Shown piece after piece: positions 25,260-64,000 of a stretch of DNA of 64,000 nucleotides (within the stretch, counting starts at the first letter, position 1; every line of letters begins with the position of its first letter). The DNA is from an uncultured virus (IMG/VR IMGVR_UViG_3300037400_005412). Taxonomy: Duplodnaviria; Heunggongvirae; Uroviricota; Caudoviricetes. The position numbers and the translations under genes are program-made. The notes under the pieces were generated by a model. The model was given only the letters and a program-made list of their open reading frames with translations, made no database searches and was not told where the DNA came from. The DNA is taken from IMG/VR virus record IMGVR_UViG_3300037400_005412; one strand, written 5' to 3'.

Positions 25260-25358
25260 TTTTTGGACAAACTGATTAAGTTTCTTAATAACAAAAAATA
25301 AAATAAGTGAGAGAAAAAACTCTCACTTATTTTAATATAAAGGAGTAACTTAATCTTA

Positions 25359-42900: not shown

Positions 42901-44997
42901 AATGGAAATTTAACAACTCAATGGGATCTTCATGACCAAGAAGCTGCTGGTAGTGTTAAATATGATTTTCTTTTAACTGCTGTTCAAGATATTATTATTG
43001 AAACAATTGATTTGCTTCAAGCAGATGAAGTTATAGACCCCACTTTATCTTTAAGAGAAGTATATGATAAATATCTTCATCCAAATGTTCTTCCGCAAAA
43101 TGATGATAAAATGTGGGACGCTTTGGCAAAAGGTAGTGTATTAGGAATATTTCAATTTGAAGGTTCTGTTGGAGCTCAAGCAGCAAAAAAGATTAAACCA
43201 CATAATCCATTAGAAATGGCTGATGCGAATGGATTAATGAGATTAATGGCAAGTGAACCTGGGGCTGAAATGCCACTTGATAAATATGTTCGTTATAAAA
43301 ATAATATTAATCAATGGTATATGGAAATGGATAGATGCGGTTTAACAAAAGAAGAACAAACAGCTATTGAGCCACATTTTAAATCTTCATATGGTGTCCC
43401 TCCAAGCCAAGAGCAGTTAATGCGAATGTTAATGGATGAAAATATCTGCGGTTTTACATTAGCAGAAGCAAATGCAGCTCGTAAAATTGTTGGTAAAAAA
43501 TAGATGTCTAAAATTCCAGGATTAAAACAAAAAGTTTTAGAATCAGCTAAATCTCCAAAATTAGGTGAATATATTTGGAAATATGGGGCTGGTCCATAGA
43601 TGGGCTACTCATTCAGTATTATTCATGCATTAGCTTATTCGTTTATTGGAATGCAAACATTATATTTAGGTGTATATTACCCTATATATTGGAATACGGC
43701 TTATTTAATTGTTAATAGCGGAGCATTGGGTGGCGATGAAGATGATGATGGAGATAAACAAGATGGAACAGATTATAAAAAAGTTGCGAAAGCTATTGGA
43801 TAGATTAGAGCTGCTGGAATTAAAATAAGTTTAGCAGATATTAATCGTTCAGAGTTTGGCTTTGTCCCAGATCCAGAGAATAATCAAATTCTTTTTGGTA
43901 TGAAGGGTATGTTAAATGTTGGCGATGATATAATTGAAGAAATTATAGCACATCGTCCATATATTTCTCCACGAGATTTTATAAATAAAGTAAAACCAAA
44001 TAAACAAGTTATGATTTCTTTAATTAAAGGTGGCGCTTTTGATAATTTAATTGATAGAAAAGAATGTATGGCTTGGTATTTATGGGAAAATTGTGATAAG
44101 AAAAAACGAATTACTTTATAGAATATGGCTGGATTAATGAAATATAAATTAGTGCCAGAAGACACCGATGAAAAGGTAATGGCGCGAAGGATATATGAAT
44201 TTAATAGATATTTGAAAGCAATTACAATTCCAGCGAATAAATTAAAACCATATTATGTATTGGATGAACGCGCCATGAATTTTTTAATAAATATTGAAAA
44301 AGAAGATTTAATTTGTCAAAATGGAAATATATATTGTTTATTAAAAGCAGATTGGGAAAAAATTTATCAATCTTATATGGATGTCTTTCGCCAATGGATA
44401 GCCGAAAATCATGATGAATTACTTAATAATTTAAATAAGTTAATTTTTATGGATGAATGGAATAAATATGCGAAAGGAACTATATCTGCTTGGGAAATGG
44501 AGTCTTTGTGTTTTTATTATCACGAGCATGAATTAGCGCATTTAAATAATTATAAATATGGATTTGTCGATTTTAATAAATTACCAGTTGAACCTAAAAT
44601 AGATAAAACATTTACTAAAGGTGGGCGCACTATTAATATGTATAAATTATATAAGATATGCGGCACTTGTATAGCTAAAAATAAAAATAAAAGTACAGTT
44701 TCTTTATTAACCACTACTGGAGTTGTAGAAGTTAAGTTCCGTCGTGAATATTTTGCTTTATTTGATAAACGAATTTCTGCTAAAGGTGAAGATGGGAAAA
44801 AACATATAGTTGAAAAATCATGGTTTGATCGCGGTAGTATGATTATTGTACAAGGAATGCGTTTAGATGATATGTTTGTATCAAAAAAATATGCTTCTTC
44901 TGGAGGGCATCAACTCTATAAAATTGATGAAGTTATTGATGATGAAATTAAAATAAGAACAACTCGCGCTCAAGGCGATGAAGAAGAGGAAGAATAA
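39931..44997 (+). CDS. dnaE: DNA polymerase III alpha (family C); 7-nt insert at 39994-40000 and group I intron at 41351-42462
   Basis: DCHAHTEYS[TAAATTT]NIRLID, ITDHE, TDAHY, GRGSA, ELG|DIDLD, GIHASGV, KYDFL, GIFQFE, GYSFSIIHA; start codon approximate. Confidence 0.9.
39943..40000 (+). promoter_or_regulatory. Candidate translational bypass/recoding element
   Basis: AATACTCAG/CTGAGTATT 9-bp stem followed by TCT TAA A TTT. Confidence 0.6.
41351..42462 (+). ncRNA. Group I intron in dnaE, just before the catalytic DIDLD
   Basis: Exon ends GGT, intron ends in G; R TGTAGAGACTA ~42351, S AAGAGATAGTCC ~42444; P1 AACTCGGT/GCCGAGTT. Confidence 0.88.
41607..42362 (+). CDS. Intron-encoded GIY-YIG homing endonuclease with NUMOD3 repeats
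   Basis: YIYLTTNLINNKKYIG, YLGSG, NPRYGIHLTEETKQKI, NGMYGKKHTEEAKQKMS. Confidence 0.85.
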
Positions 44998-45895: not shown

Positions 45896-48800
45896 ATGGT
45901 TATTAAACGTGATAATTCAAAAGTTGATTTTGATGCTAGAAAAATCGTAAATGCTATCAATAAAGCTTTTATTGAAGTAGACGGTTAGTTATATGAAAAT
46001 GATACTGCTACTGATATTGCTATCGACATAGGTAAAAAATATATTGATACAGATGTTGATGTTGAGACAATTTAGAATGATGTCGAAGATTATTTAATGC
46101 GTTCAGAACGTAAAGATGTAGCTCGGGCATATATCCGTTATAGATATAAAAAAGAAGTAGCTAGAAAAGTTCAAGATGACTTTATTGCCCCTATTAAAGA
46201 TAAACTTGAAGCAGCAAATGTATAGAATCAAAATGCTAATGTTGATGAATATTCATTTGGCGGTCGCATGGGTGAAGCTGCAAGTTATATGACAAAAGAT
46301 TATGCTATTAATTATCTTTTATCTGATAAAGCAAAGCGCAATCATTTAAACAATAGAATTTATATTCATGATTTAGATCATTATGCTCTTGGTGATCATA
46401 ATTGTTTAAGTGTGCCATTTGATGAATTACTTGCTAATGGATTTAATACTCGTCAATCTGATGTGCGCCCTGCTGGATCTGTAAATACTGCTTGCCAATT
46501 AGTAGCGGTTATTTTCCAACTTCAATCCTTATAGCAATTTGGTGGAGTTAGCGCTACTCATATTGATTGGACAATGGTCCCATATATCCGCAAAAGTTTT
46601 ACTAAACATATTGAAAATGGTTTAATTTATATAGAACATTTATCTGAATATAAATAGAAACGTTTTACTAAATGGTTAAAAGATGCTCCAGACTATCCAG
46701 ATGGGACTATTCATTTTGATGATGTAAAATTTTAGAAAAAGCATCCAGAAGTATTTGAATATGCTATGGATATGACTGAAAAAGAAGTTCATCAAGCAGT
46801 TGAAGGTCTTTATCATAATTTAAATACATTACAAAGTAGGTCGGGTAGACCTTAAAGTTGCCCCATTATTTGGTAACAAATAATTGATAATCCAGCAAAA
46901 TCGGTAAAATCTAAAAATTATTTTTTGGTCAGTTCTAATTTATAGAGTATTTAGAAAATTTATATTATATAGAAAATAATAATATAAAAGGAAGAAAAAA
47001 GTATGAAACGAACTGATAAAAAAATTGAATAGCAAGTTATTAATTTATATAGTACAACTAATTTATCTATGGTAAAAGTTGGACAATAGTTTGACCTTTC
47101 AGGAGCTACTGTTATGGCAATTTTAAATAGAAATAATATTCCTAAACGAACAAAAGGTGGTATTTATAAAATACCAGATAATGATGTTATACAAAAATAT
47201 ACTCAAGAAAATAAATCTTGTCAAGAAATTGCTAATGAATATAATGTTAGTTTTAACACTATTAGTATGATTTTAGAAAAATATAATATAAAACGAAATA
47301 ATATTTATTTTAATAAAAATTTATAGAGTGATTATTTTTCTTCAATAGATACATATGATAAAGCATATTTTTTAGGACTTTTAATTACTGATGGGAATGT
47401 AACTAAAGAAGGAAATGCTATTAGACTATCATTAAAATTAGAAGATGAAGAAATTTTAAAAACTTTTACTTCTAAAGTAAAAAGTGAAAATCAATTAGTA
47501 TATCGACAAGATAAACCAGAGGTCACTTTTTCTGTAAAAAATAAACAATGGAAAATAGATCTAGCAAAATTCGGAGTTATACCTTGTAAAACAACATCAA
47601 TAGAAATGCCATTATTAGCAGATGAAATGATGCCTCATTTAATTAGAGGAATGATAGATGGTGATGGCAGTATTTCTAGTAAGTCACATTATATTTTCTT
47701 TTGTGGTAATAAAAAAACAGTATAGCAATTACATGATTATTTAGTAGAAAAATTAAATCTTTATAATGTAAAAATTTTACATACAGAAGAAAATTTGTGG
47801 AGTTGTCAATGGAGTTCTAAAAAAGATATATTAAAAATAGGTCAATATATTTATCAAAATAAACAAGATTGTTATTTAAAACGAAAATATAATAATTTTT
47901 TACAAATAATTCAAGATAATACCGAGGTAACTTCTTTGATTACGAAAGGCAAAGAAGCACCGTAGAGCGTAGAGAGTGAATAAATATAATCTCTCCAAGA
48001 GTGTTGGACTTCCTTAATGTAAGGAAGAAAATGTACGCCGAACTAATAAGAAATTATTAGAATTACTGGATAAAAAACCAGTAAGATAACATATTTGAAC
48101 TAGTTACCATTTACTTCTATTAATTATGGTACTTGTACTTTGCCAGAAGGAAGAATGTTTACTCGTGCTTTGTTAGAAGTTAGTATCGAAGGACTTGGAA
48201 AATTACATAAAACTTCTATTTTCCCATGCGGGATTTTCTAGTGTATGAATGGTGTTAATCGTAAATATGGTGATCCAAATTATGATTTATATATTTTAGC
48301 ATTAGAAAGCACCTCTAAACGTCTTTATCCAAATTATGCTAATGTGGATTGGTCAGGCAATGCTGGATATGATAAAAATGATCCAACTACATATTTTTCA
48401 ACGATGGGATGTAGAACTGTTAATGGGGCTGATATAAATGTTGAACCTGGTGTCAATCCACAACGTAAAGATGGACGTGGTAATATTTGTCCTGTAACTA
48501 TTATTATGCCTACTCTTGCTATGGAAGCTGTGTAGACTACAGAAGATGATGAAAATGCTAATGGCAAAGAAAGTATTATTAATAAATTTATAGAACTTTT
48601 AGATAAAGCTATTTATGATGCTAGAGATATGCTTTTAGAAAGATTTGAATGGATTTGTTCTTAGAGCCCATCAAGTGCTAAATTTATGTATGAAAATAAT
48701 ACTATGAGTGGTTATCATCCAGAAGAAGGAATTATTAGTGCCCTTAAGCATGGCACATTAGTTATTGGATAGCTCGGGCTAGCAGAGACTCTTCAAATTC

Positions 48801-49411
48801 TTATTGGAAAAGATCATACTACTTTTGAAGGAATGGAGTTAGCTAAACGTATTGAACAATTATTTAAAGATCGGTGTGCTCAATTTAAACAAGAAGAACA
48901 TTTGAATTTTGGTGTTTATTATACTCCTGCAGAGAACCTTTGTTATACAGCTCTCAAAAAATTCCGTGAAAAATATGGAGTTATTGAAAATGTTAGTGAT
49001 AAAGATTTCTTTACAAATTCTATTCACGTTCCAGTTTGGAAGAATATGAGTCCATTTGATAAAATTGATATTGAAAGTCAATTAACTGGATATAGTAATG
49101 CTGGATGTATTACCTATGTAGAATTAGATGCATCTGTTGTTCATAATATTGAAGCATTAGAATAGATTGTTAATTATGCTATGGATCATGATATTCCATA
49201 TTTCGCTATTAATGTCCCTTCTGATACTTGTTTAAATTGCGGTTTTTAGGGAGAAATAAATGATAAATGCCCAATATGCGGAAGTACTCATATCCAACAA
49301 CTTCGTCGCGTAACTGGTTATTTAACTGGAAATTATACTACTGCTTTTAATCTTGGAAAACAAGATGAAGTTCATCATAGAGTAAAACATGTAGGAGAGA
49401 TAACGCCATGA
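45896..49411 (+). CDS. nrdD: Anaerobic ribonucleoside-triphosphate reductase; exons 45896-46846 and 48098-49411
   Basis: ATP cone, YIHDLD, spliced LQSRSG|NQLPFTSINYG, MGCRT, TPAENL, RRVTGYL. Confidence 0.92.
46847..48097 (+). ncRNA. Group I intron in nrdD
   Basis: Exon ends in U, intron ends in G; splicing restores the conserved motif; core segments CAAAATCGGT, ATACCGAGGTAA, CGTAGAGCGTA, ATGTACGCCGA. Confidence 0.88.
47003..47983 (+). CDS. Intron-encoded LAGLIDADG homing endonuclease with HTH repeats
   Basis: KAYFLGLLITDG and HLIRGMIDGDGSI; several TAG. Confidence 0.85.
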
Positions 49412-49896
49412 AATATGCGGGAATAATTAAAAATGATGTTGCCGCTGGCAAAGGTGTTTGCGTTACATTCTTTGTTCAAGGGTGTGATACCCACTGTCCT
49501 GGATGTCATAATCAAGGAACATGGGATTTTGATGGCGGATATGAATTTACACAAGATACAATTAATTCAATTATTAATGCATTAAATGCTAATGGAGTTT
49601 AGCGTAATTTATGCATTATGGGCGGAGAACCATTACATCCGCATAATTAGTTTTTAGTGTAGCTTTTAATACAAGAAGTTAAAAAAGTTTATCCTGATAT
49701 AAAAATATATTTGTGGACAGGATATATCTATGAAGATTTAATTGTCAAACATGAAAAAATATTATAGAATATATTATAGGAAATAGATGTATTAATTGAT
49801 GGCCCTTTTATCCAAGAATAGAGAGATATCACTCTTGAAATGCGTGGATCTAAAAATCAAAGAATTTTAAATTTAAAAGAATTAAGGAGACAATAA
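49408..49896 (+). CDS. nrdG: Anaerobic RNR activase
   Basis: GCDTHCPGCHN, GGEPL, WTGY, IDGPF, RGSKNQR. Confidence 0.9.
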
Positions 49897-49899
49897 ATT

Positions 49900-50238
49900 A
49901 TGATAGTTACATTATGTGGAAGTACAAAATTTAAAAAAGAATATGAAGATATAGCAAAAGATTTAGCTCTCCAAGGGCATACAGTATTAAGCGTTAATAT
50001 GTTTGGGCACGCTGATAATATTGAATTAACTACAGAATAGAAACTTATTCTTGATAACGAGCATAAACAAAAAATTAATATTAGCGATGCTATCTTTGTA
50101 ATTAATAAAGATGGTTATATTGGAGAAAGTACTTTTAGCGAAATTGATTGGGCACAACGTCTAGGTAAATAGGTTTATTATTTAGAGGACCCGACACCAA
50201 AAGAAGAGGCAGAAAAGAAAGATGAGGAAAAAGAATAA
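49900..50238 (+). CDS. Nucleoside deoxyribosyltransferase-fold protein (DUF4406-like)
   Basis: VTLCGSTKF...KINISDAIFVINKDGYIGESTFSEI. Confidence 0.6.
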
Positions 50239-50756
50239 TGAATATATATCTTGCTGGACCAATATTTTTCTATGGAGATTATCTCCGCAATATAGAGTGG
50301 GCAAATAAAATTAGATAGGCATTCCCTGATGCCTATTTATATAGCCCAGTAGAAAACACTGATATAAATGGTGTTGAGGGCAAAAAGAAATTTGCTGGCT
50401 CACAAGAAATTGCTAATGGTGATAATATTCGTCTTGATAATACTGATGTGCTGATTGCCTGTATTGATGGTGATGTGCTTCCTTCTGGTACTTGCGCTGA
50501 AATTGGTAAATTCCATGAAAAGATTATGCGTGGCGATAATAAATATATTATTGGTATTTGTACTGATACTCGTCAATGTTATAATACTCATAGTGCCGAA
50601 AAAGATACCGGCGGCGCAGTTAGCCTTGGAGAGTAGCAATATAGTTATCAAAATCTTTATGTGACTGGTTTAATTAAGCAAGCTGGCGTATTAGTTTATT
50701 CAATTGATGAAGTAATTGAAAAATTAAAAGAGATTTATGATAGATATAATTTTTAA
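50238..50756 (+). CDS. Nucleoside 2-deoxyribosyltransferase-family protein
   Basis: IYLAGP, YSP, D...D, SGTCAEIG, NLYVTG. Confidence 0.75.
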
Positions 50757-50803
50757 TTATATCTATCATAAAAAAGAAAGGAAGGAGAGTAGAAATATAA
50801 AAA

Positions 50804-51655
50804 ATGAGTTTAGAAGAAGGAAAAATATTATCAAGTGATGTTAATGATTTAATATCAAGAATTAATACTGAAATTAATAGGAGAACGGTAGCTGGTTTTT
50901 TAAAAAGTAACGCAGTTTCAAATGGATTTTAGTCCACTCTCGGTGGAACAGATAATGAAATAACATCATCTCATAATTCTAAAATTCATCCATCTTGGCT
51001 ATGTGTAAATCGTCAATACCGAAAAAATTTTACGATATATAGTGTATATTATTTGGACGAATCTAATAATAAAATAATTTGTAACAAAAATCAATCATAC
51101 AATGAGAATACTTAGTTTATAGGTAGATATCTGGATTCTGATGGATATTGGGCTGGTCAAGAAAATGTTTCAGCCGAACAATTACAGTCTTATGGATGTT
51201 TAAAACCTACATATACTATTGACACTCCCTCTATTTCTTCTGGAACAAAAGCAACTGCTGAAGATATAAACACATTAATTGAATTATTAAATGTAATTAA
51301 TACAGATACATATTGGGATACAGCGACAGCTGTTACTGCTGGTAATCTTATTCAAACAATTATAGAAATATCAAATACTTTAGAAAAATTTGAAAATGCT
51401 CCTAGTGAAAAATCAATCAGCCGAATTACTCAAGATAAAGTTAGTAATATAGGTAGCCCACCTGGTAATACATCAGGGTGCGGTTCCGCTTGCAAAGGCC
51501 TATGTCAAAGTTGTTTGGGTAGTGCGATAGGTAGTAGTAGTGGAGATGGTTGCGATTATAGTGGTTGCGATTATAGTGGCTGCGATTCATGCTCATCTGG
51601 TTGTCAGGGAGGCTGTGGAGGCTGTGGTTATACTTGTTCAAGTTCAAGTGACTAA
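50804..51655 (+). CDS. 283-aa protein with C-terminal Cys-rich CXXX-type repeat (putative radical-SAM substrate)
   Basis: C-terminus SGCGSACKGLCQSC...GCDYSGCDYSGCDSCSSGCQGGCGGCGYTCSSSSD*; two TAG. Confidence 0.75.
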
Positions 51656-51672
51656 TAAAAAAGGTAAAAATT

Positions 51673-51969
51673 ATGAAAAAAATACAAATAAATATTCCTA
51701 CTGAAATAAAAAATCTTATTCAAAAATTTGACATAGAAGCATAGTCTCGTAAAGAAATTATTGAATATGTTTTATTAAATAATATAAATATTACGAATAA
51801 TCATTTTCAACAATATCAAAAAGATTATGAAAAACGACTTTACGAATTTAATATAGCTAAACAAGAATTATTCAATAAATACGTGCTACCAAAATTAAAA
51901 GAAAATAGTAATTATAATTGGAGATTAGATTATAATACTTCAATTCTTACTATTGAGGTAGATGAATGA
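51673..51969 (+). CDS. CXXX-repeat modification system accessory protein (98 aa)
   Basis: Helical body with C-terminal WRLDYNTSILTI; lies between substrate and maturase. Confidence 0.6.
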
Positions 51970-53288
51970 AAAATTATAGTGATAATTTAAGTGAATTATA
52001 TTAGATTCAAAAAAAACCAAATATTAATATTATTTTTACTCCAAGTATTACATTTCAAATTACTGAAGATTGTAATTTAAAATGTAAATATTGCTATCAA
52101 ACTAATAAGACACATTCTATAATGTCATTAGAGATAGCAAAAAAATTCATTGATTTATTAATTGAAAATAATAATAATACTAAATAGTATATAGATACTC
52201 AACAATGTATTGGGGTAATTCTTGATTTTATCGGAGGGGAACCATTTCTTCAACCTAAATTGATAGATGAAATAATTGAATATTTTCGTACTCAAACAAT
52301 TATTTATAATCATCCTTGGTAGTATAATTGGCGTATTGCTATTACTTCTAATGGAACATTATATTTTAGTCCAGAAGTATAGGAATTAATTAAAAAATAT
52401 CAAAAACATTTATCATTATCTATTTCAATTGATGGAAATAAACAACTTCATGATGCCTGTCGTATATTCTCTAATGGGGATGGTAGTTATGATAAAGCCA
52501 TTGCAGCAGTCCATCATTATAGAGAATATTGGCATGGATCTATGGGTAGTAAAGTAACATTTTCTCCTGATAATATAGAGTATGCTGGAGATGCTATTAT
52601 TAATCTTATTAATGAAGATTATACAGATATTCATGCTAATTGTGTTTTCGAAGAAGGTTGGAAAAATAAACATGCTACAATATTTTATAATGAAATGAAA
52701 AAAATAGCAGATTATATTTTAAATAATGATTTAGAATATAAGATAAATTTCTCCATTTTTGTAGAAAACTTTTTTTAGCCTTTGCCGATTGAAGATACCT
52801 AGAATTGGTGCGGCGGAAATGGTCAAATGTTAGCTTTAAGGTGGGATGGAACTATTTATCCATGTTTACGTTTTATGCCAAGCTCATTAGGTAATATAAA
52901 ACCAATAGTTATAGGAAATGTCAATGATGGGATTATGACAACACAAGAACAGCGTGATGAAATTAATAAATTAAAAGCGATAAATAGAATTAATCAATCA
53001 ACAGAAGAATGTATTAATTGTCCAGTAGCTAAAGGATGTAGTTATTGCCAAGCTTTTAATTATTAGGATAGTGGTAATTTTCATCATCGTGCGACATATA
53101 CTTGTTGTATGCACAAAGCTCGTGCTCTTGCAAATGTATATTATTGGAATAAATTTTATATTAAAAATTTATCAGGTGGCAGATTTAAAAATTATTTGCC
53201 TGATGAAGAAGCATTAAAAATTATTGATAAAAAAGAATTATAGATGTTAAAAGATTTAGAAAATACTCCAATCGAAAAAGTAGAATAA
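51966..53288 (+). CDS. Radical SAM/SPASM peptide maturase (CXXX-repeat target family), 440 aa
   Basis: TFQITEDCNLKCKYCYQ, FIGGEP, SIDG, WCGG...YPCLRF, CINCPVAKGCSYC, CCMHKARALAN; about 8 TAG. Confidence 0.88.
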
Positions 53289-53355
53289 AAAATGTGCTTA
53301 CCAAAATTTTACCAAAACGTATGGTGATTTGGCAGAAAATTAGTAAGCGCATTTT
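53289..53355. repeat. Palindromic element copy 3
   Basis: AAAATGTGCTTACCAA...TTAGTAAGCGCATTTT; interior nearly identical to copy 2. Confidence 0.75.
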
Positions 53356-53381
53356 GACTTTTCTAAAAATATGATATAAAA

Positions 53382-53676
53382 GTCAACAGATAATGAATTT
53401 TATAAAAAATATATTATGCTTTTAGATGATGCAATAATTGGATGCATTATTATAACCAGTCAAACATATGTAAGTAATCTAAAAAATAAAAATGCTTTTA
53501 CTAAAGAGACTCAAGAAGAAGTTTTCAAAAAAACATATGATGCAGTTATGACAATATTAAGCAAAGATGCGGTAAAATATTTAAATAATGCTGTTGGTGA
53601 TTTAAATAGTTATATTATTAATAATATTCAAGTGCAAATTAAATTAAATAAAATTACTAAAAATGAAAATGAATAA
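53382..53676 (+). pseudogene. 5'-truncated paralogue of the holin-like gene at 509
   Basis: STDNEFYKKYI...QTYVSNLKNKNAFTKETQEE matches 509..973; no TM; in-frame TAA just upstream. Confidence 0.65.
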
Positions 53677-53681
53677 AAAAA

Positions 53682-53720
53682 ATAGGAGAACTCTTATATA
53701 ATAGAGTTCTCCTATTTTTT
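53682..53720. terminator. Bidirectional terminator, homologous to 971-1010
   Basis: ATAGGAGAACTCT/AGAGTTCTCCTAT. Confidence 0.75.
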
Positions 53721-56700
53721 ATTTTACTTTAATCCAAATTCTACCATTAATTTCAATATTATCACTGCCCCAATACTTATATACAGGAATTTCACTAACA
53801 TATCCTACGATCGCATCCGGCCATTCTCTTATTTCTTCTCTTGTCATAATACTAATTGTCCCATTCGGCCCAGAGCAAACTGCTTGCCCAGGTTTAAAAG
53901 AATTTCTCTCTTCTAATGGATAAGCTAAAACACGACCTGAAACTGCAATAGGTGTATTAGCATAATTTGATTCACCAATAGAAAATCCAAAAGTATCAGA
54001 TACAATATTAGCCCCTAGCTGAAGGCGCTATTTAGATAGTTCCAAATCACCATCGCCAAGCTCAACAACACACCGTCCTGGGGCAACATTATTAGTATGC
54101 CGATATTCGGCATAATCATTAAAGACAGCCCCATGTACTTTAAATCCCATAATAGATTTTCGTGCAGAAATACCACCTAAAGTAGTGATGCTTCCGCTTA
54201 CGTGGGCATCATTAAATCCTAAGCCAGGGGCTGGGCGCTATTCTATAGTCTAATTTGAAACATTCTCGCCATTAATTATTAATTCTCTTTTATAAAAATT
54301 AGAATCTAAAGAATAATATTCTCCAATCTCACATCTTATATAATCATCAGATAAATAATTATGTTTATTATAAATATTATTTCTATAAATATATAAATTA
54401 TCTTTTTTATTTTCCCAATTTTCAATGGAATAATAATATTTTTTTAAGTAAGAAGATTGATTTTCTAAATTAATAATTTTTTGATAATAATTTGTATTAT
54501 CATTTGGATTATATAACTAATATTTTGATATATAAATATATTCTGGTAAATTAATTATTTCAAAATTAGTCCCATTATAGTTAATGAATTCTTGCTAAGA
54601 ATCCTATACTTTTAATAGTATCTTATCATCATCATCTCTATATGTATTAAACGCATCCTCTGTAGTTATATTTAAACTTGTATTATTCATATAACTAGAC
54701 ACCATATAATAATTTTTTGAATTATCAAATTCAACAAATGGAGAGGATACTCTTATATAATTTCCATCTTCTATAAAATATACTCCAGATAATGCTAACC
54801 ATTTCCAATTTGTTGGTTTTACTCCTTGAATATTATTAATTTTTTCATGGTTCAAAGTATAGTAATTTACAGTTGATGAATAATTATTAAAATTATTTAA
54901 CTTAATCCAATTATTAGATTGAAAATAATATAATCCTTCTTGTATATCATTTTCAATTTGTTGCCTATAAGTTATATCATTTTCTTCAATAGTAGTATCA
55001 TAATCATCCATACTTACTTTACTATATTGATAATACTCAAATGGGCTAGCTTCAACGGTTAACTAATAATAATCCTAATTAGCTATTTGCCCTGGATAAT
55101 TATAATTAGGAATTAAATAAAAAGTATCATTATCTTTTATATAAAGTCCTTCTTGTATTTTACTATTCCAAGTACTTTCTGTCACACTTACTTTTTCATA
55201 GCATGTGGCATTATAATAATAATATACTTTAGTATTATCAAAATTAGGTTCATTAATAACTTTTTTGTAAGACCCATATTCATCTTCTTCATATAAGTTA
55301 TAAATATTAGTACGAGAAGGGTCTCGAACAATATTAAAATATTTACTTACTTGAGTTATATCAATTCCTTTATAAATAACATCAGTTTCCATATTTGGAC
55401 CTGGCAAAATATTATAGGTTCTTTTATAAATATCCTAATTTTTAATAATATTAGAATAATTCTTTAATAATTTATTAATTTCATAATTACTCTTATTATT
55501 TAATCCTTCTATTAAAACATATTGGTTCTCATTAGGATCTTTAATATAATAGTTAATATTATTATTATAATAAAAATATGTAATTAATTTATTATTATCA
55601 TCAAATAACTAATTTCGTCCAATATAATAATAAAAATTTTCTGAATTAACTGTATTATTATTTTCAATTATTTTATAATAATGTTCTGTGTTACGAATAA
55701 TAGTATTTTCTAAAGTAACTTCTTCAAGAACGTTATTATCATTTAATTTATAATATGTCTATTCTTCAATAATTTCTGTACCAGAAGCTTCTTCTTCAAA
55801 AATATGATAATTTATATTATTATTATTATATATATTATAGATAATATCGTTATTTTTTTCATAGCTATCTACAAAAATATTATTTTCAGATATCGCACTA
55901 TTCCAAGAACTCTCATCTGAATTATCATAATTAGTAAATTCAAAATCATATATATTGTTAGGCGCTACTTCTTCATAGTATGTTATGCTAGAATCATATA
56001 TGTCATCAGTATTTTTATTAATAAAACCTAAATATTTATATTTTTGTATAGAGGTAAGCTCTTCTAAGAACTCTTGAAAATTAATACCAGAATTAAATGG
56101 GTCAAGTATTTTTTCAGTAGGATTAGCCCAAGTATATCCTGTTCGACGAATATAAGAAGAAGTATAAATAGTCTAAACTATAATAAAAGAATTTTTATAA
56201 TTAATATCATATATCTAGCCTATCTCAACGTCCTAATTTTGATTATTAATTTTTAATTTTAAAGTATTAACAATTTTTTGCTAATTTTTAGCATTCGGTT
56301 TTTCACTAGTCCCACCGGTACATTGAACAGTCTATATCTTTTTTATCTAATATCCAGCTATGCCAGATTCTTCTTGATAATTTTCTTTTACGGCAAAATT
56401 AAAATGAGTTAATGAACTATCTGAATCATTATTAGTAGATAAAATATTATTACTATCTTTATCTTTATTAATTATATTATAAGTCCATCCATCACTAACA
56501 GCACCTTCTGTTGTTTCAATCCATCTATCTGCTTCTGTCTAATCTTTAATAGCTAAAGATGAATCAAAAGATGTTGCACCATCCCCTATAATATTTAAAT
56601 TATTAAGAGTTGCTGTATCTGTAAATAAATTATCGCATTCTAAAGTATTAGTTCTTATATTTCCGCCGCCATCTTCTACTTCGGCATAATATAATACAAT

Positions 56701-57381
56701 ACCTGGATACCCTTCTTGATCTTCTCCGTAAAAATTCTAATCTGATAAAATAGCTACATTTTTTATTTCATCAAATGAATTTAATCTTTCATAATCATTA
56801 TTATTTTTTTTCTAATAAAATATTAAATTACTTAAATACTCTAAATTTTTAAAACTTTCTTCGTTGGGGCAATCTAATATTTGCGCGAGATCAGATTGGC
56901 TAATTTGTACGTATTGATAATTTGAAAAATCTCCATTATTATCAAATCCTTGAATTCGTATATTTCTATTAACATTATTATTTTCCTAAATTTGAAAAGT
57001 TCCTGATAATTTATTATTAGAAATTTCATTAATTTCTTCAGGGGAAAAAATTAATTTATTTCCTCCTATAATCCAAGTATATCTTTTAGAGTTCTAATTT
57101 TCTTGAATATTAATATTCCCAAGCTCGTCTTTAATTAATCCAATCTATTGATTAATAATACATATCTACTAATCATATTTATCATAATTCCATAAATCCA
57201 CAAAAATTTGCGCGATCTCTTTTTCATCATCATTGAACTATGAAACATCTTTAGATTTCATACTAGCTATAGAAACAAAATGGTATGTATCTCTAATATC
57301 AGACTTAATAGATTTTATAAAACCTATTAAACTATCTTGAGTAAAAATGACATCTTCATTATGATGTACATTATTATTCAT
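53719..57381 (-). CDS. Large Asn/Tyr-rich fibre-like protein (~1220 aa) with C-terminal peptidase-G2-like chaperone domain
   Basis: ATG 57381 with GGAGG; track fragments in one frame joined by TAG (frame spot-checked); GAVFNDYAEY...GRVLAY...GRIWIKVK*. Confidence 0.65.
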
Positions 57382-57438
57382 TTATAAAATCCTCCTTTGC
57401 CGCTAAAATAAAAAAGGGGAGAATAAAATTCTCCCCTC

Positions 57439-58038
57439 TTAAACATCTAACCAATAAAGGGTAAATGTGCCTTTATTATAATCATCTTCTAATTTTTCTA
57501 TCATCTAAAATAATTCAGGACTTAAATTAATTTGATTATTCGCTAATTCTTCACCATCAAGATTATTCTGTCCCTGTAATATTGCACTTTCTGCTATCAA
57601 AGTATTAAAACTATAAGAAATTTCTTTTTTTTCATTAGTAGAAAACCAACAAATAGAAAATTTTACTATCCCAGCTTTTTCTGTAGCAGCTCCCTAAATG
57701 CACCAAGGAATTAAAACCTTATTTTCATCACTAAAAGTCTATACATCATAATATGGAACAGGATAAATATAACTATTTCCTGCGGCATTAGTAAAACGAA
57801 TAATACAAGCTTTTGTTGTTAAATCCATATAATCAAAATATCTATCAAATTTAAAATAGATAGTTTCAGCATAATGATCGTTAGCTACACTTAAAAATTT
57901 AGGTACTGAAATTTTTCTAGTATTTAAATCTATATCATAAATTTTTTCATCTTTTGGAAGAAGTAAAGCTTTACGGGTAGGAGCGTTGCTCTATATTTCC
58001 CATAGCATTTCTTCATAATCATGACTATTAGTAATCAT
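57439..58038 (-). CDS. BppU-like baseplate protein
   Basis: DHYAETIYFKFDRYFDYMDL...IPWCI...GIVKFSI...FNTL. Confidence 0.6.
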
Positions 58039-58063
58039 TACAATGCGCTCCTTCCTTTAAAAT

Positions 58064-59896
58064 TTATGAACGAATATAGTTGGGGTCATCATCAACTGTA
58101 ATAGTATCTAAAATTTTAGTGTAAATACTACCATTATATATGTTTTTAATTACAGGAGTATAGTCTCCTTCTTCTGTAATAGTAATAGAAGCTCCAGTCC
58201 CTACTATACGATCATAAGAGATCCATTGATATTCAATATCTCCACGAGGATCATCGCCTCTATCAACATCAGCAATTGTTAAAACGACAGAGCGCTAAGC
58301 CATACTGCCGTTTGAATTAAATTTTTCTATAGAATTAGCTGCGCGACCATCACGTTTACAAGTAGCAGAAAGAATTGGACTGGCAATTAAAGAAGCTACC
58401 CATTCTTCTGAAATGGCCTAATCAGCATATGTCCCATTCTTAAAATTATTTACAAGAACACGGTATCTGCCTTCTGAGCTAATCTCTTTTGAGCTTTCAT
58501 TTTCTAAAGAATACTAGTTTTCTAAATCCATATCAGTAAATTCAATAGCAGTTCCTAATTTCTATTGCCAAATAAACTATAATGCCCCAAAATTATCAGC
58601 AATTGCTCTAGCTGTTAGTTGACCTTTATTTTCAGCATCTAAGAATACAATATTCTGAATATTATCAGCAAATGAGTAATTTTCATCTCCAGAAATTTCA
58701 GAAGCGGCAATCTCAATTTCAGATGGTGTTTGCGCTGCTGGAATTGTTACAGCGGCAGTAATAGCTACTTCTCCAGCGCCAATTCTTTCCTTTTTTCCAT
58801 CTTTATTATTATATTTTTCACCTTGAGCTTTAATACTATAAACTCCAGCAGTAGAAACATTAATTTTACCTAATTCAATATATAATTCTATTGGATCTTC
58901 TTCATCTTCCCAAGCAGCTAAATCATCTAGTTTTGCTAAAATATAATTTTCTGGATCATTACTATCTTTAATATAATATCTTTGATTAGCTGGTAACATC
59001 ATACCTTCTTCATAAGCAGGAATTTGTTTATATACAGAAATATCTTCTCCAATAGTATTCATGTAGTGAAGTTCAGTTGCATTATCGACATATCCTTCAG
59101 CAAATAAATCAATTGGTTCACTGGTAGGTTTTCCCTGTTCGTTAAATGTAGTATTTAAATTAATAACAGGATTAAATTCAGATGGGACAAAAACATTTCC
59201 TTCGTTAGAAATATTTAAAACTAATCCATTGCCGGTTACCCATTGTACTGGGTCTACGGCTGCCTCACCTGACCCGAAAGAACTATTTGTGATAATACTA
59301 AGAATATCATTATTTAAGTCAGTTATTTCTACATCTTTTGATAAAATCAAACCATCTTTAATATTAATAGTCGCTGGTAAAGTATTAAATTCATACTTAA
59401 TTTTCCCATTATCTTCAATACTAAATTCTACAGCAAAAGTTAATTGGCCACCTTTTTCGGTAATAATATTATCAATAGGCCAACCAAAAATAACATAACC
59501 TGGTAAAATTTCTTTACTCATAATAAAGTTTTTAGTTTTACCATTTCTATTCCCCATTTTCCAATTTATACAAACATTAGTAGAACTTAAATCTGTATAA
59601 TCAAAATATCTATCAATTTTAAAGAAAACCATCTCTGCTAAATGATCTCCTTGAACAGATAAACCATTAGAACGGAATTCAGCCGGAATATTAATACTTC
59701 TAGTGTTAGCATCGATTTCAAATAAAGGTTCATCTAATGGGAGTCTTAAAAACTTATTATCTAATAATTTAATATCACCAAGTCTGCCATAATAGCTTTC
59801 AATATTATCTACATTTATCTATCCTTCACTTTTAATTCTAACTTCATCAAATAAAGAATTATAAGCACTATCGAGATTAGTTGTTTTTGTAATCAT
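58064..59896 (-). CDS. Structural protein with BppU-like N-terminal domain
   Basis: DHLAEMVFFKIDRYFDYTDL...GWPI...LTFAVEF...FNTL; joined through TAG. Confidence 0.6.
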
Positions 59897-60028: not shown

Positions 60029-60226
60029 TTATACTTCTCTCCATTCTTCTAACTCTTCTTCTGGAATAACAACAGATATACATTTATTTACTCCATCTTT
60101 AGTTAATTTTTTACCATTATCAGCATGAAGTTTCAATTTTCTTACATAATAAATGTCTTCTAGATGTACAGGAGAAAGAATTGTTCCATTTGTACCTAAA
60201 TATTCATACAAAATAGTTTTAATCAT
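60029..60226 (-). CDS. Small structural-module protein
   Basis: Track ORF, SD AAGGAG, coupled to the upstream gene. Confidence 0.6.
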   Translation of the reverse strand: MIKTILYEYLGTNGTILSPVHLEDIYYVRKLKLHADNGKKLTKDGVNKCISVVIPEEELEEWREV

Positions 60227-63200
60227 TGTATAATCTCCTTTCCATTCACGATTACAACAATATTTTCATTAGAATCTCCACCAAAAATATCTCTTAAAAT
60301 TGCTTTTTTATCCATATTTTCAAAAGCTATTACAGTGGTATATAAAACTACTTGTTTAAATTTTGTAAGATTTCCTTGGAAAATACCCTAATTACTAATT
60401 GAAAAGCTATTGACATTTGAAGGATTTTCCGGTGATCCAATCTATAATGATTGTACTTGAATATTAATAGTATTTTGGTTACTAAAACAATTAGAACCAA
60501 ATGACTAAATATTACCACCAATAATTAAATCTCTATCCAAATCTTGAATCTTAAATGCGTTTGTAAAAGTGCGTGCTCCAAGAGTTTCTAAAGTGCCAGT
60601 AATAATAGTAGATTCACTTAAATTTTCTACAGATTGGAAAGCTCTTTCATCAATAAATTTTAATCCATTAGTAAAATCAAAATATTTTAATTGTGTACAA
60701 CCATAAAATGTATATCTATTAATGGCACGAATATTAGTTTCATTAGATATTTTATCTTTCTATAAGAAAACATGAGTAACATTTGCTAAATTAATATCCA
60801 TTGCTTTCTCGGTAGCCGTAGTAGTTCCAGAACTAAACATTACAACAGGTGTCCCATTAATATTATTAGGGATAGTCAATTTTCCAGTTACTTCTTTATT
60901 TAATTTTATATTTAAACCTCTATAAATGTTACCCGCCAAATCAACAACCTAACTATTCTCATTTACAATTTCAAAAAACTCTGGATGAATATTATCATAA
61001 ACAGAGATAGGTTCTTGGTTCCAAATAGCATAAAAATTAGTATCACTTATAATTGGAAACTCTAATAAATTCATAATTGTTTGGGCATTGGCATTTCTAT
61101 TAAAGCCTAATAACTAATAAGTCTAATCTACAGGTAAATCAGAGTCATCTTTTACTGGATATACCATAGGTCCATTAATAGCAGTATTATGGGGGACATA
61201 TACTGTATCTATTAAAGTATCTCCATCATAAAATTTAACTTGCCAACTATGAATTGAGCAAACTGCATAAAAATAATAAGTAAATTTATCAGGATCTAAA
61301 GTTTGAGCCGTCCAAATTTTTGTTTTATCTAATGAAGCTAATAAATACTAAGTATCTAAACTATTCTTTGTCGCCCATCCATAAAAATCATAGTTTGGCT
61401 TTAATTTACTAATATCACCATATAATTCAATAGGATCATCAAACCAACCAGACTCAATAGTCTAAGAACCAATTAATGTATAAGTTCCGTCTTCCCCTTC
61501 ATCAGCATCCATTAATAAAAATTTTGCAGTAAATGCTGATTTAACATGTTTAAAGAAGAATATTAAATTAGGGAATTTTGGTTGTAAATTATTACGGATA
61601 TCAATTTCATTAACCTCATTCTCTTCGGTATTATTAATATAAATGATACCAGTGATGTTAGGAACAATATTATTTTCATCAGTTCTAAATAATTCACTAT
61701 TTTGAGCAAATACTCTAAACATATCTATATTAGTTATTTGATCTATATCTTCCTATGGAATAGTAGAATCAAACCTATAAATTTCACCATTAGCAACCTA
61801 AATAGGCCATTTGTCTAAATGATAACTATAAGGCTCTAATCCATAATGGCCATTATCAATGTAATAAGAGATGGAAGAATCATAACTTTCATCTTCGGTA
61901 ACTTTTATGTAAGGAGACCACTAAACATTTGTCATTTGAATATTTGAATTAGAAGAAGTTTGTCTGCTACGAATATCATAATATCTCTTTAATAATTTAT
62001 AACTATCATATCCTAATCCACTACCTAAAATATTTAATGTAGAAATTGAAGTATTACCTTCTCCTTCAAACATACCTTGTAAATATAAGCCAGGTTCAGC
62101 GACTAAATCTCCTTCAAGATTTAATTCTGGATAATGATATTCAGTAATTAAATTCTTTAATAAACGAGCTTCTGTTAATTTTAATGAAGTTAAACCAGAA
62201 GGTAAGTATAAAGTATTTAACGCAACACCTTCAGCAAATTTAATTTCACTGTAATTTGAACCAGTAGCACGGAAATTTTCAAGTTTTTCACAACTTGTTA
62301 AATCAAGAACAGCAGAACCTTGACTTAATTGAACATTACTTATATTCATATATTTAAGTAATGGTAAACCACCAGTAATTGAATCTTTAGAAGCACCAAA
62401 ACTTGGATTATTTACATTATTATTAGCATAGTTAATTTTTTGTCCTGGATGTTCAGGATCATCCATTTGTCCATCATAACCAAATTTTAAGCTAGTTAAT
62501 TTAGCAGCAGAACCTTCAATAGAAAATTCTTGCCAATATAATTTACTCATATCGCCTAAATCACTCATATGGTTAACACCATAAATATAAAGCAATTGTT
62601 CTGGATAATTTTGGCTAGTACGTACACCACTTTCAATAGCAGAAACTTCAAATTTTAATGGATGAATGCCATCATATTTCTATGAAGGATATGCCTCATT
62701 ATCGTCTCCAAGAGTAACATAAGAAGAATGAGTTGGAGTTAATGTTAACCAATATTCAGCATCAAATAAATGACGTTTTGAACCATCAGCTAAATAATAA
62801 CTAGTATCTGGATCATTAATATTTTCAACCCATTTATCAGAAGTCTTTGAAGCATTATTAGCGGCAACACGCCCTCTAATACGGTTAAATCCACCTCTTT
62901 GATAGTTACCTTGATTTAACCAGCTATCAATGTACTCAATACGATTTGTTAAGAATTGACGTCTAGCTAAAGATCTATTGCCTTGAAGCATATAGAAATA
63001 AGTACCATCATCAACAGCAAAGTTACCTTGATCATCGCTAGATAAATGACCAATTAATCCATTTTCTAATGCTTGCTAATTGCTGCCATTAGTAATAGTA
63101 ATATATTTATAATATTCATCTAAATTTTGAGCAACGATTGGGCGCTTACCTCTCATTACAATTTGTCCGCAAATATTTGGATCGGTATTATACCAACCTT

Positions 63201-64000
63201 CAATAAAATCAACAGACTATAATGGAGGATTTTGTAAAGCAGGCCAAACTACTCCGCTAGTGACACCTTTTAAGTGTTTGTACTTAGAAATAATAGCAGA
63301 ACTCTTAAAATATCTATAGAAGTTATTCCAAAGAACGCTATCAGAAGTTGAATAGTTACCGTCTTCAGTAGCATCAACGTTATATTCAAATGAAGGAATA
63401 CCAGTATTGTTAACACCTAATTGAGTATCAATATCATAGAAAATAGGATACCAAATGTATTCGCCACCCTATTCTTGTGGACCCCAAGAAGCCATCATAC
63501 AGTTTTTACCACGAGAGTCATAGCATTCAAATACTTCAGTCATAATAAAGTAAGTTGCCATATACTCAAGGTCAAAATGCTTCTCTAATTCATTAATAAA
63601 CTTATCGCCACGATATTCTTTTGTATCATACTTATATTCTTTGCCTTTGTAAGTAACAGTTATTCCTACCCAATAATTAGTTGGATTAGCAGTAAATTCT
63701 TCTTCTGTTAAATTATCTATTTTAACAGTTGCTTCCCCATTCTATTGAGTACCATCATAAGTATAATAAATTTCATTAGGATCAAATGTATCAGTAGCTT
63801 TACATTGTCTTACAAGTCTATCAACTTTCTTAGTAGCTAATTCTTCATCAATATAATTATTTAATTGATAATAAATTATACTATCATTAAATTCAGGATC
63901 ATTAGCACAGGAAACGTACTCATTATTAATTTTAACATAAAAATTATTTCTATTAGTAGTATTAAATACATGTTCTTCATCAGCAACATGAGCGTCAACG
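60223..64000 (-). CDS. C-terminal part of a giant protein with CotH-kinase-like domain and leucine-rich repeats (5' end beyond window)
   Basis: YDSRGKNCMMASWG...WYPIFYDIDTQLG; LRR LDLTSCEKLENFRA; BspA-like repeats; single frame via TAG. Confidence 0.65.

What the first reader, a model, noticed from the sequence alone, without database searches (positions are those of the whole stretch)
50804..53288. Phage-encoded CXXX-repeat radical-SAM modification operon with a large fused substrate
Seen: three coupled genes, almost invisible in the code-11 track. They encode a 283-aa protein ending in a 12-Cys Gly/Ser-rich repeat (including a tandem GCDYS duplication), a 98-aa accessory protein and a 440-aa rSAM/SPASM enzyme. 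Established: this resembles the bacterial CXXX-repeat peptide maturase systems (TIGR04114-04116-type families, from recall). Inference: here the substrate is a protein-sized fusion next to the tail module, so the phage may install thioether or other crosslinks on a virion or effector protein.
Basis: partly seen in the sequence, partly recalled or inferred. Interest (0 to 1): 0.8.

Follow-up and report, generated by a model that had tools for sequence, protein, structure and literature searches.

The report
Phage radical-SAM kit for cysteine-tailed protein
A gut-type phage that reads the stop codon TAG as glutamine carries a three-gene kit, a radical-SAM enzyme, a small helper and a cysteine-tailed protein, that probably cross-links one of the phage's own proteins next to its tail-fibre genes, a kind of protein modification not yet shown for any virus.

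Summary
Read with TAG=Gln, the window has three coupled genes at the stated coordinates: a 283-aa protein with 12 Cys in its last 58 residues, a 98-aa protein and a 440-aa radical-SAM/SPASM enzyme. The enzyme scores above NCBIfam's cutoff for TIGR04115, the CXXX-repeat maturase (426 vs 350 bits). The 98-aa protein is a distant relative of the system's helper family TIGR04116 (hhalign 94.7%).

The same trio is common in phage and prophage contigs, which form their own maturase clade. It lacks the second bacterial maturase (TIGR04119). Targets of 150-480 aa are normal in that clade, so the large substrate is not special. It usually sits beside tail-fibre, baseplate or lysis genes, as it does here.

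This window's target is atypical. It has an inserted beta-rich domain and a short, irregular Cys tail; a syntenic relative carries two full CXXX-ladder proteins instead.

Thioether cross-linking of a virion-associated protein is the best reading, but it rests on family resemblance and gene context only. No paper describing this in phages was found. The scan has noted the same kind of kit on other DNA many times.

The parts
50804..51655 (+). Target protein P0001, 283 aa (TAG=Q; 2 in-frame TAG)
   Evidence: It has only 4 close relatives among 5.8 bn clusters and 8 hits among 1.84 bn representatives. It shares an N-terminal helix, a second helical motif and the first Cys box with phage CXXX targets.
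50825..50893 (+). N-terminal helix (residues ~8-30, ILSSDVNDLISRINTEINRR), shared with phage-clade targets
   Evidence: Alignments; sequences listed; predicted helix 10-30 at low confidence.
50981..51223 (+). Inserted beta-rich domain (residues ~60-140), absent from typical phage CXXX targets
   Evidence: It is the only confidently modelled part of P0001 (pLDDT 82-92 per block). It is missing in L001 and L167 targets. No significant fold match was found.
51251..51394 (+). Conserved helical region (residues ~150-197, AEDINTLIELLNVINTDTYW...IIEISNTL)
   Evidence: It is the most conserved stretch in the subfamily (invariant columns). It corresponds to the '...INPLLNV.D / LINACLVIND' motif of other phage targets.
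51473..51520 (+). First Cys box SGCGSACKGLCQSCLG (residues 224-239)
   Evidence: C226, C230, G232, C234 and C237 are invariant across 9 aligned sequences. It is equivalent to the 'SSSCRGACTGLC' box that opens the repeat region of other phage targets.
51479..51652 (+). Cys/Gly/Ser tail to the C-terminus: 12 Cys at residues 226-278, GCDYS tandem duplication
51673..51969 (+). Helper protein P0002, 98 aa, distant member of the TIGR04116 (CXXX_rpt_assoc) superfamily
   Evidence: An iterated HMM finds it next to the maturase in 110 of 124 loci. hhalign against bacterial TIGR04116 members gives 94.7%, E 6e-8, over 92 columns. The model has pLDDT 96 with the order strand, two long helices, beta-hairpin. 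Its stop overlaps the maturase start.
51966..53288 (+). Radical-SAM/SPASM maturase P0003, 440 aa (8 in-frame TAG)
   Evidence: TIGR04115 426.3 bits against a cutoff of 350; Pfam Radical_SAM, Fer4_12 and SPASM; phrog_1802 E 8e-66.
52071..52094 (+). Radical-SAM cluster motif C36-x3-C40-x2-C43
   Evidence: invariant in alignment A2.
52809..53105 (+). SPASM auxiliary-cluster cysteines C282...C380
   Evidence: invariant in A2; Pfam SPASM match at residues 282-353.
53719..57381 (-). Context: convergent 1220-aa fibre-like protein. Its C-terminal 155 aa recur in the 817-aa protein at 1009-3462 and in fibre proteins of relatives.
   Evidence: 55% identity; 60% identity to the L167 926-aa protein. The L169 951-aa protein, which the printed sequences show ending in a similar C-terminal stretch (by inspection, not aligned), has tail-fibre PHROG hits.

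Best explanation
The three genes are a phage-type, minimal version of the CXXX-repeat radical-SAM protein-modification system.

Shown:
- The enzyme is a TIGR04115-family radical-SAM/SPASM maturase with all cluster ligands intact.
- The 98-aa gene is the system's small helper, translationally coupled to the enzyme.
- The 283-aa gene is a divergent member of the family of Cys-repeat proteins that accompanies this enzyme in phages.

Inferred:
- The helper and enzyme recognise the target through its conserved helical N-domain and the invariant GCxxACKGLC box.
- The enzyme then uses SAM-derived radicals to join Cys sulfurs to carbon atoms of nearby residues (thioether links, -2 Da each). This is what its nearest characterised relatives do (PapB, SCIFF maturase, QhpD).
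- This turns the flexible Cys/Gly/Ser tail into a covalently stapled knot that reducing conditions cannot open.
- The protein has no signal peptide, and no protease or exporter gene lies beside it. It is therefore probably modified as a whole protein and stays in the cell until assembly or lysis.
- Because the kit recurs at the tail-fibre/lysis junction of many phages, the product is most likely a tail-associated virion part. Here it carries an extra beta-rich domain, perhaps for binding.
For: Family:
- TIGR04115 scores 426.3 bits against a cutoff of 350. The next-best families are all thioether-forming maturases below their own cutoffs: PapB 183, SCIFF 126, CcpM 120, QhpD 95.
- The helper aligns with TIGR04116 members (hhalign 94.7%, E 6e-8). 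It is found in 110 of 124 maturase loci and in none of the 38 more distant rSAM loci.
- A same-strand Cys-rich ORF lies beside the maturase in 75 of 81 viral loci, 36 of 42 genome loci and the window.

Target homology: an N-terminal helix, a second helical motif and the first Cys box are shared with phage targets.

Phage clade: on a quick tree, 26 viral rows plus 5 genome rows form one clade (SH-aLRT 96), sister to 28 bacterial rows (98). Four of those 5 genome loci show prophage genes.

Context:
- PHROG tail-category hits occur in 7 of 11 annotated viral loci; tail or lysis hits occur in 8 of 11.
- L169 has a 951-aa tail fibre directly upstream of helper and maturase.
- L142 has CXXX repeats fused to two PF12810 glycine-rich domains.
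- The window and its syntenic relative L167 place the kit head-on against fibre-like genes.

Divergence: between the window and L167 the flanking genes are 65-87% identical, the maturase 57% and the helper 35%. The target matches only at the Cys box, and the fibres match only in part. Fast turnover of this kind is typical of surface proteins.

No exporter or leader protease was seen among the neighbours. The phage carries anaerobic NrdD/NrdG, which fits an oxygen-sensitive enzyme. PapB chemistry comes from passages of PMC12373016.
Against: - No experiment exists on any CXXX-repeat system, so the chemistry is extrapolated from relatives that score below their family cutoffs.
- P0001 has no tail-fibre or other structural domain by Pfam, PHROGs or NCBIfam, and no fold match.
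- Its tail is short and irregular: 12 Cys, with 5 of 11 spacings CX3C. Relatives have 17-86 Cys.
- The slot between tail-fibre and lysis genes is also where phages keep cargo genes, so position alone does not show a virion role.
- In 3 of 11 annotated viral loci no tail or lysis gene was recognised nearby.
- In the window the genes upstream are nucleotide-metabolism genes, not structural ones.
Confidence: 0.55

Rival explanations
1. The kit is cargo, not a virion part. The modified Cys-rich protein would be made late and released at lysis, or kept in the lysogen, to act on other cells or on the host. It could be a bacteriocin-like or signalling product, or a protective protein.
For: The tail-fibre/lysis/integrase junction where the kit sits in temperate relatives (L115, L136 and L002 with integrase or CI repressor) is a usual place for cargo genes (established knowledge). 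The bacterial cousins in Bacteroidales are exported: their targets carry Tat-type signals, and TatA/TatC follow the operon in L043. P0001 has no recognisable structural domain.
Against: Phage-clade targets have no signal peptide, as the sequences show directly. No exporter or leader protease lies beside the kit. The kit also occurs in this phage, which has a large replication module of its own and no integrase within 64 kb. In L142 the repeat is fused to glycine-rich domains that also occur as separate neighbouring genes beside tail-fibre genes.
Confidence: 0.25
2. The Cys tail is a metal- or iron-sulfur-binding module, and the enzyme does something other than Cys-to-carbon cross-linking. Possibilities include oxidation of Cys as in anaerobic sulfatase maturases, or methylation.
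For: The Cys/Gly/Ser-rich composition resembles metal-binding tails (inference). The anaerobic sulfatase maturase family is a weak hit (TIGR03942, 63 bits). No CXXX system has been characterised: searches found no paper on it.
Against: The best-scoring characterised relatives are all thioether-forming enzymes. The repeat length varies widely (10-86 Cys). That fits a structural ladder better than a defined metal site.
Confidence: 0.12
3. The cassette is decaying in this phage. The target has lost most of its repeat, and the genes are on their way out.
For: P0001 has 15 Cys against a median of 36 in viral loci. The syntenic relative L167 has two full-size targets with 56 and 43 Cys. A truncated holin copy lies just downstream.
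Against: All three ORFs are intact, with the catalytic Cys conserved. The short-tailed form is a family of its own with strongly conserved helices and Cys box (P0004-7, P0129, P0130). That argues for selection.
Confidence: 0.08

Closest known systems
NCBIfam CXXX-repeat peptide modification system of bacteria (TIGR04115 maturase, TIGR04119 second maturase, TIGR04116 helper, TIGR04117-type targets); defined in silico, chemistry untested as far as my searches show
   Same: The maturase is above the TIGR04115 cutoff. The helper is homologous by profile comparison. A Cys-rich target is encoded beside them.
   Different: There is no TIGR04119 gene or domain in the window or in any of 81 viral loci; it is present, separate or fused, in 29 of 42 genome loci. 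The helper and target do not reach the NCBIfam models. Phage targets have a 100-145-aa helical N-domain where Bacteroidales targets have a Tat signal and Clostridia targets a short leader. The system is phage-borne.
PapB / freyrasin ranthipeptide maturase (NF047865)
   Same: It is the second-best family hit, over nearly the whole enzyme (183 bits, residues 27-373). PapB makes Cys-to-Asp/Glu thioethers in repeated CX3D motifs with -2 Da each (passages of PMC12373016). The P0001 tail holds 5 Asp, two of them invariant in its subfamily.
   Different: The score is far below the family cutoff of 340. The target is a whole protein rather than a leader-core peptide, and a helper protein is present.
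QhpD / QhpC (quinohemoprotein amine dehydrogenase maturation, TIGR03906)
   Same: A radical-SAM/SPASM enzyme that cross-links Cys within a protein subunit that stays part of a larger assembly (established knowledge, recalled). It is a weak family hit (95 bits).
   Different: The score is below the cutoff of 453. The target and context are unrelated.
Radical-SAM genes of giant enterobacterial phages (SPN3US, CR5, Erwinia phages; phrog_1802)
   Same: They belong to the same PHROG family. They are 25-28% identical over about 85% of the enzyme. In SPN3US the gene lies among virion structural, tail-assembly-chaperone and endolysin genes.
   Different: They are only distantly related and have two rSAM genes in a row. 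I did not examine their small neighbouring proteins here.

Membership tests
TIGR04115 rSAM_Cxxx_rpt | HMM score at or above the curated cutoff (350 bits) | tested here: met
   426.3 bits, E 1e-127, profile positions 2-359 of 359
TIGR04115 rSAM_Cxxx_rpt | CX3CX2C radical-SAM motif and SPASM auxiliary-cluster cysteines | tested here: met
   C36/C40/C43 and C282...C380 are present and invariant in A2; Pfam Radical_SAM and SPASM hits
TIGR04115 rSAM_Cxxx_rpt | Encoded beside a target with CXXX repeats | tested here: inconclusive
   The adjacent P0001 has 12 Cys in 58 residues, but only 5 of 11 spacings are CX3C and the longest CX3C chain is 3. Relatives have clear ladders.
TIGR04116 CXXX_rpt_assoc | HMM score at or above the cutoff (50 bits) | tested here: not met
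   P0002 gives no TIGR04116 hit at E<=1. Bacterial helpers score 101-102 bits.
TIGR04116 CXXX_rpt_assoc | Homology at profile level and the same position beside the maturase | tested here: met
   hhalign A3 vs A4: 94.7%, E 6.4e-8, 92 columns; found in 110 of 124 loci
Complete bacterial CXXX system | Second maturase TIGR04119 (separate gene or C-terminal fusion) | tested here: not met
   None in the window or in any of 81 viral loci; present in 29 of 42 genome loci
TIGR04117 CXXX target | HMM match of the target | tested here: not met
   P0001 matched 0 NCBIfam families. Even typical phage targets gave at best E 0.33.
PapB family NF047865 | HMM score at or above the cutoff (340 bits) | tested here: not met
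   182.8 bits
RiPP natural-product cluster | Short precursor with a cleavable leader, plus a leader protease and/or exporter gene | tested here: not met
   The target is 283 aa. No protease or transporter was recognised among genes 49408-59896.
Phage tail fibre / virion protein | Recognisable structural domain or fold in the target | tested here: inconclusive
   No PHROG or Pfam hit for P0001. No significant fold match. Only the neighbourhood and one fusion in L142 point that way.
Phage tail fibre / virion protein | Presence in purified virions | not testable with these tools
   Needs virion proteomics.

The most novel reading that the evidence does not exclude
Phages use a dedicated radical-SAM enzyme and helper to install carbon-sulfur cross-links in a tail-associated virion protein. 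That would make it the first enzyme-installed covalent staple of a phage appendage. This window would show a derived form in which the long cysteine ladder has shrunk to a short C-terminal staple and a beta-rich, possibly binding, domain has been inserted.
Probability: 0.35. Interest if true: 0.8.

Novelty: new variant of a known kind. Interest (0 to 1): 0.6.

Why it matters
The CXXX-repeat radical-SAM system is known only from in-silico family definitions. My literature searches found nothing on its chemistry and nothing on phage copies.

It is also simpler, with one enzyme and one helper, and it acts on whole proteins.

If the product is a cross-linked fibre part, that would be a new way for viruses to harden or shape an appendage in the reducing, anoxic gut. 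It would also offer a compact two-protein tool for stapling Cys-rich protein tails.

The short, 61-residue tail of this window's target would be a convenient substrate for working out the chemistry by mass spectrometry.

Tried and rejected
- **Own genome:** not held, so TIGR04114 and TIGR04116 could not be searched in it.
- **Target in other collections:** tblastn of P0001 and of a typical phage target (L144) against 50,697 phage records gave no match. Scans with the P0001 family alignment found no relative in viral contigs or metagenome contigs.
- **Fused forms:** a search for longer forms of the P0001 N-part found none among 1628 candidates, which is weak evidence.
- **Helper fold:** Foldseek gave nothing at E<=0.001. 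VIA gave best Z 7.6, to generic helical hairpins. No PqqD-like recognition fold appeared, and no fold could be assigned.
- **P0001 fold:** the model is poor overall (pLDDT 54). The best VIA match (Z 7.0) is to helical bundles and the best Foldseek match is E 0.02.
- **Pfam on targets:** a scan of nine targets gave only PF12810, in L142. The CXXX Pfam family named in an earlier scan note (PF27846) did not appear, perhaps because the held Pfam copy lacks it.
- **Helper-target binding:** the complex prediction could not be run, so helper-target or helper-enzyme binding is untested.
- **Protein atlas:** look-ups could not be run for these recoded proteins.
- **Suppressor tRNA:** no tRNA was found in the window, so no suppressor tRNA could be named.
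- **Tree:** the careful search did not finish. Only the quick tree with SH-aLRT support is reported.
- **Considered and rejected:** that the 98-aa protein is a PqqD-type RRE. No sequence or fold support was found.
Full report
**Observation**

Under the bacterial code, the stretch 50804-53288 shows only fragments of 79 aa or less. Opening TAG raises the share of the window covered by ORFs of 100 aa or more from 0.55 to 1.06; opening TGA instead gives only 0.66.

- P0001: 50804-51655, 283 aa
- P0002: 51673-51969, 98 aa
- P0003: 51966-53288, 440 aa

The reading TAG=Gln has independent support. At 5 of the 8 TAG sites of P0003, 11 to 15 of 15 aligned homologues have Gln; two of these columns are invariant Gln. 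All 59 of 59 gene models stop at TAA or TGA. No tRNA gene lies in the window.

P0001 ends in a 61-residue tail with 16 Ser, 15 Gly and 12 Cys. The tail includes the tandem GCDYS-GCDYS. The Cys spacings are 4,4,3,13,5,5,3,4,4,3,4, so only 5 of 11 are CX3C. P0002's stop overlaps P0003's start (ATGA), and 17 nt separate P0001 from P0002.

**What the three proteins are**

*P0003 (enzyme).* It scores 426.3 bits on NCBIfam TIGR04115, 'radical SAM peptide maturase, CXXX-repeat target family', whose cutoff is 350. The next-best families all fall below their own cutoffs:
- PapB, 183 bits
- SCIFF maturase, 126 bits
- CcpM, 120 bits
- QhpD, 95 bits

It has Pfam Radical_SAM, Fer4_12 and SPASM domains, and it matches phrog_1802. 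The CX3CX2C motif and the SPASM cysteines are intact and invariant in a 16-sequence alignment.

*P0002 (helper).* It hits no library directly. An HMM seeded with it and iterated on the fetched loci finds a counterpart in 110 of 124 loci whose maturase scores 250 bits or more. It finds none in the 38 loci with more distant rSAM enzymes. Bacterial counterparts pass TIGR04116, 'CXXX repeat peptide modification system protein', at 101-102 bits against a cutoff of 50. A profile-profile comparison of 23 phage-type helpers with 12 bacterial ones gives 94.7% probability and E 6e-8 over 92 columns.

Its model is confident (pLDDT 96). The order is one strand, two long helices, then a beta-hairpin. It matches no solved structure convincingly and shows nothing like a PqqD-type recognition element.

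*P0001 (target).* It hits no family. It has only 4 relatives among 5.8 bn clusters, and its N-terminal 222 residues have 8 hits among 1.84 bn representatives.

Set beside the Cys-rich proteins next to related maturases, it clearly belongs to their family. It shares three elements with them:
- an N-terminal helix (…DVNDLISRINTEINRR)
- a second helical motif (AEDINTLIELLNVINTD, matching …LINACLVIND / …INPLLNV.D)
- the first Cys box (GCGSACKGLC, matching SSSCRGACTGLC)

It differs in two ways. It has an inserted beta-rich domain of about 80 residues, which is the only part of its model predicted with confidence (pLDDT 82-92 per block, overall 54). Its Cys tail is also much shorter. Neither Foldseek nor VIA gave a meaningful fold match.

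**The wider family**

The maturase has over 2,000 relatives.

One genome per species gave 491 stretches. The best of these were 46-48% identical, in Oscillospiraceae and other Clostridia, and 33-43% in Bacteroidota, other Bacillota and a few other phyla.

On a quick maximum-likelihood tree, 26 viral rows and 5 genome rows form one clade (support 96). It is sister to a clade of 28 bacterial rows (support 98). The window's enzyme pairs with L001 (support 100). Support is SH-aLRT only because the careful search did not finish.

Four of the 5 genome rows in the phage clade lie among phage genes: baseplate, tail-fibre, endolysin, holin or CI repressor genes (L002, L003, L004, L007). The clade is therefore essentially phage and prophage.

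A same-strand Cys-rich ORF (8 or more Cys per 40 aa) lies within 3.5 kb of the maturase in 75 of 81 viral loci and 36 of 42 genome loci. Viral targets have a median length of 240 aa and a median of 36 Cys.

The canonical bacterial system has a second maturase, TIGR04119. It is fused to the first in 8 loci and separate in 21 loci, out of 42 genome loci. It is absent from the window and from all 81 viral loci.

Bacteroidales targets begin with Tat-type signals (…SRREFFKK…). In Segatella copri the operon is followed by TatA and TatC. Phage targets have no signal peptide.

**Context**

In the window the trio ends the plus-strand replication and nucleotide-metabolism block. That block includes topoisomerase II, ligase, a split PolC-like polymerase, split NrdD, NrdG and a nucleoside deoxyribosyltransferase. 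The trio meets minus-strand fibre-like genes head-on.

Among 11 viral loci annotated with PHROGs, 7 have tail-category hits and 8 have tail or lysis hits. The typical order is baseplate, then tail fibre, then the kit, then endolysin (L098, L147, L115, L136, L142, L088). Three of the 11 showed neither.

In L142 the CXXX repeats form the N-terminus of an 809-aa protein. The rest of that protein is two PF12810 glycine-rich domains (E 7e-99), a domain that also occurs as separate genes beside the kit.

A search of JGI metagenome contigs with P0003 gave 14 loci with 50-61% identical maturases. Thirteen of them are TAG-recoded by my density test.

One of these, L167, is syntenic with the window:

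| Gene | Identity to the window |
|---|---|
| NrdG | 75% |
| Small ORF after NrdG | 65% |
| Nucleoside deoxyribosyltransferase | 87% |
| Maturase | 57% |
| Helper | 35% |
| Fibre C-terminal domain | 60% |
| Two further minus-strand genes | 34-36% |

L167 carries two ordinary ladder proteins, of 367 aa with 56 Cys and 350 aa with 43 Cys. They match P0001 only at the Cys box. The target therefore turns over as fast as the neighbouring fibre genes, while the nucleotide-metabolism genes upstream stay conserved.

In L169 a 951-aa protein with tail-fibre PHROG hits lies directly upstream of helper and maturase.

**How it most likely works**

Shown:
- a bona fide TIGR04115 enzyme with intact clusters
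- a coupled helper of the TIGR04116 superfamily
- an adjacent member of the phage Cys-repeat target family
- recurrence of this trio in phages at the tail-fibre/lysis junction

Inferred:
- The helper and enzyme dock on the conserved helical N-domain and the invariant Cys box.
- The enzyme forms Cys-sulfur-to-carbon links in the tail. Its nearest characterised relatives all do this. PapB joins Cys to Asp or Glu downstream of the donor in CX3D motifs, with a 2-Da loss per link (passages of PMC12373016). The P0001 tail has five Asp, and D248 and D261 are invariant in its subfamily.
- The protein is not cut or exported, since no protease, exporter or signal was seen.
- It ends up on or near the tail.

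The last step is the weakest. The same genomic slot also holds cargo genes in temperate phages.

**Comparison with what is known**

The kit works like the bacterial CXXX-repeat system and is a member at the level of the maturase family. However, it fails three membership features of the full system: there is no TIGR04119, and helper and target fall below the model cutoffs.

It is not a PapB-family member (183 bits against a cutoff of 340). It is not a classical RiPP cluster either.

Full-text searches for 'CXXX repeat' with radical SAM, TIGR04115, ranthipeptide with phage, SPASM with bacteriophage, SPN3US with radical SAM, and radical SAM with tail fiber and thioether found no description of such a phage system. 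The one cyanophage paper that came up mentions only a generic rSAM 'antibiotic synthesis' gene (passages). Subscription journals are not covered by these searches.

The scan's own notes hold 121 earlier findings of CXXX/radical-SAM systems in at least 90 genomes. The eight that were shown include five bearing on this report, which read phage copies as fibre cross-linking kits. That agrees with my reading, which I had written down before seeing them, but it is not independent evidence.

**Verdict**

The 'large substrate' is normal for phages. What is unusual here is the shrunken Cys tail and the inserted domain. This is a new variant of a known, though uncharacterised, kind of system. Both the chemistry and the virion role remain to be shown.

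Noticed in passing
window 1-64000: TAG is read as Gln but is used very unevenly. 14 of 59 gene models have no TAG; these include genes at 7565-11682, the two topoisomerase subunits at 17467-21719 and the first polymerase piece at 39965-41392. Other genes use TAG for up to 100% of their Gln codons, or 0.5-0.7 in larger genes such as the endolysin (22 TAG) and RecJ (19 TAG). This could mark early versus later expression classes.
   Followed up: partly
window 53416-53676 and 509-985; 53719-54190 and 1009-1480: An 86-aa ORF right after the maturase is a truncated copy (66% identity) of residues 54-133 of the phrog_13712 holin at 509-985. The two minus-strand fibre-like proteins next to these copies share their last ~155 residues (55% identity). 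A 'fibre end plus holin' junction therefore seems to be duplicated.
   Followed up: partly
window 39965-44997; 45896-49411; 30719-32886: Several core genes are split or followed by homing endonuclease genes. The PolC-like polymerase is in two pieces around a GIY-YIG gene (41580-42362). NrdD is in two pieces around an endonuclease (47003-47983). DnaB is followed by another endonuclease (32065-32886). Further HNH/GIY-YIG genes lie at 24199-27268.
   Followed up: no
L001 4977-7322 (the same contig also as L083 and L173); protein P0009: The closest viral relative of the maturase is 781 aa because of an insertion right after the first SPASM cysteine (NWC|...|NCGGNG). The insertion looks like an intein with a homing-endonuclease part. 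P0009 (588 aa) carries Pfam Hint-type domains (PF07591, PF13403).
   Followed up: partly
L043 4443-8467 (Segatella copri) and other Bacteroidales loci L015-L040: Bacterial CXXX targets in Bacteroidales start with a twin-arginine-type signal (…SRREFFKK…). In L043 the operon is followed by TatA- and TatC-like genes, which suggests export of the modified protein by the Tat route.
   Followed up: partly
L142 2788-5214: An 809-aa phage protein has ~230 residues of CXXX repeats at its N-terminus, followed by two ALK/LTK-type glycine-rich domains (PF12810, E 7e-99; phrog_1589). The same domain occurs as separate neighbouring genes in L088, L134 and L142.
   Followed up: partly
L163 390-3197; L134 8611-11401; L159 11507-12721: Some related phage loci carry further radical-SAM/SPASM genes and other Cys-rich proteins next to the CXXX kit. 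In L163 these are a papain-like peptidase, a 230-aa protein rich in CxxC pairs and a second rSAM enzyme.
   Followed up: no
L167 5668-6156; L082 5111-5623; L172 4007-4516; L165 1773-2270; L001 4055-4567: In the TAG-recoded relatives, a 163-171-aa protein with a hydrophobic N-terminus lies directly upstream of the helper gene. The window has no such gene between 50756 and 50804. Its role is unknown.
   Followed up: no
window 60223-63999: The large minus-strand protein that runs off the window end has BspA-type leucine-rich repeats near its C-terminus (PF13306, E 7e-11). It also has a weak CotH-like match below the Pfam cutoff.
   Followed up: no
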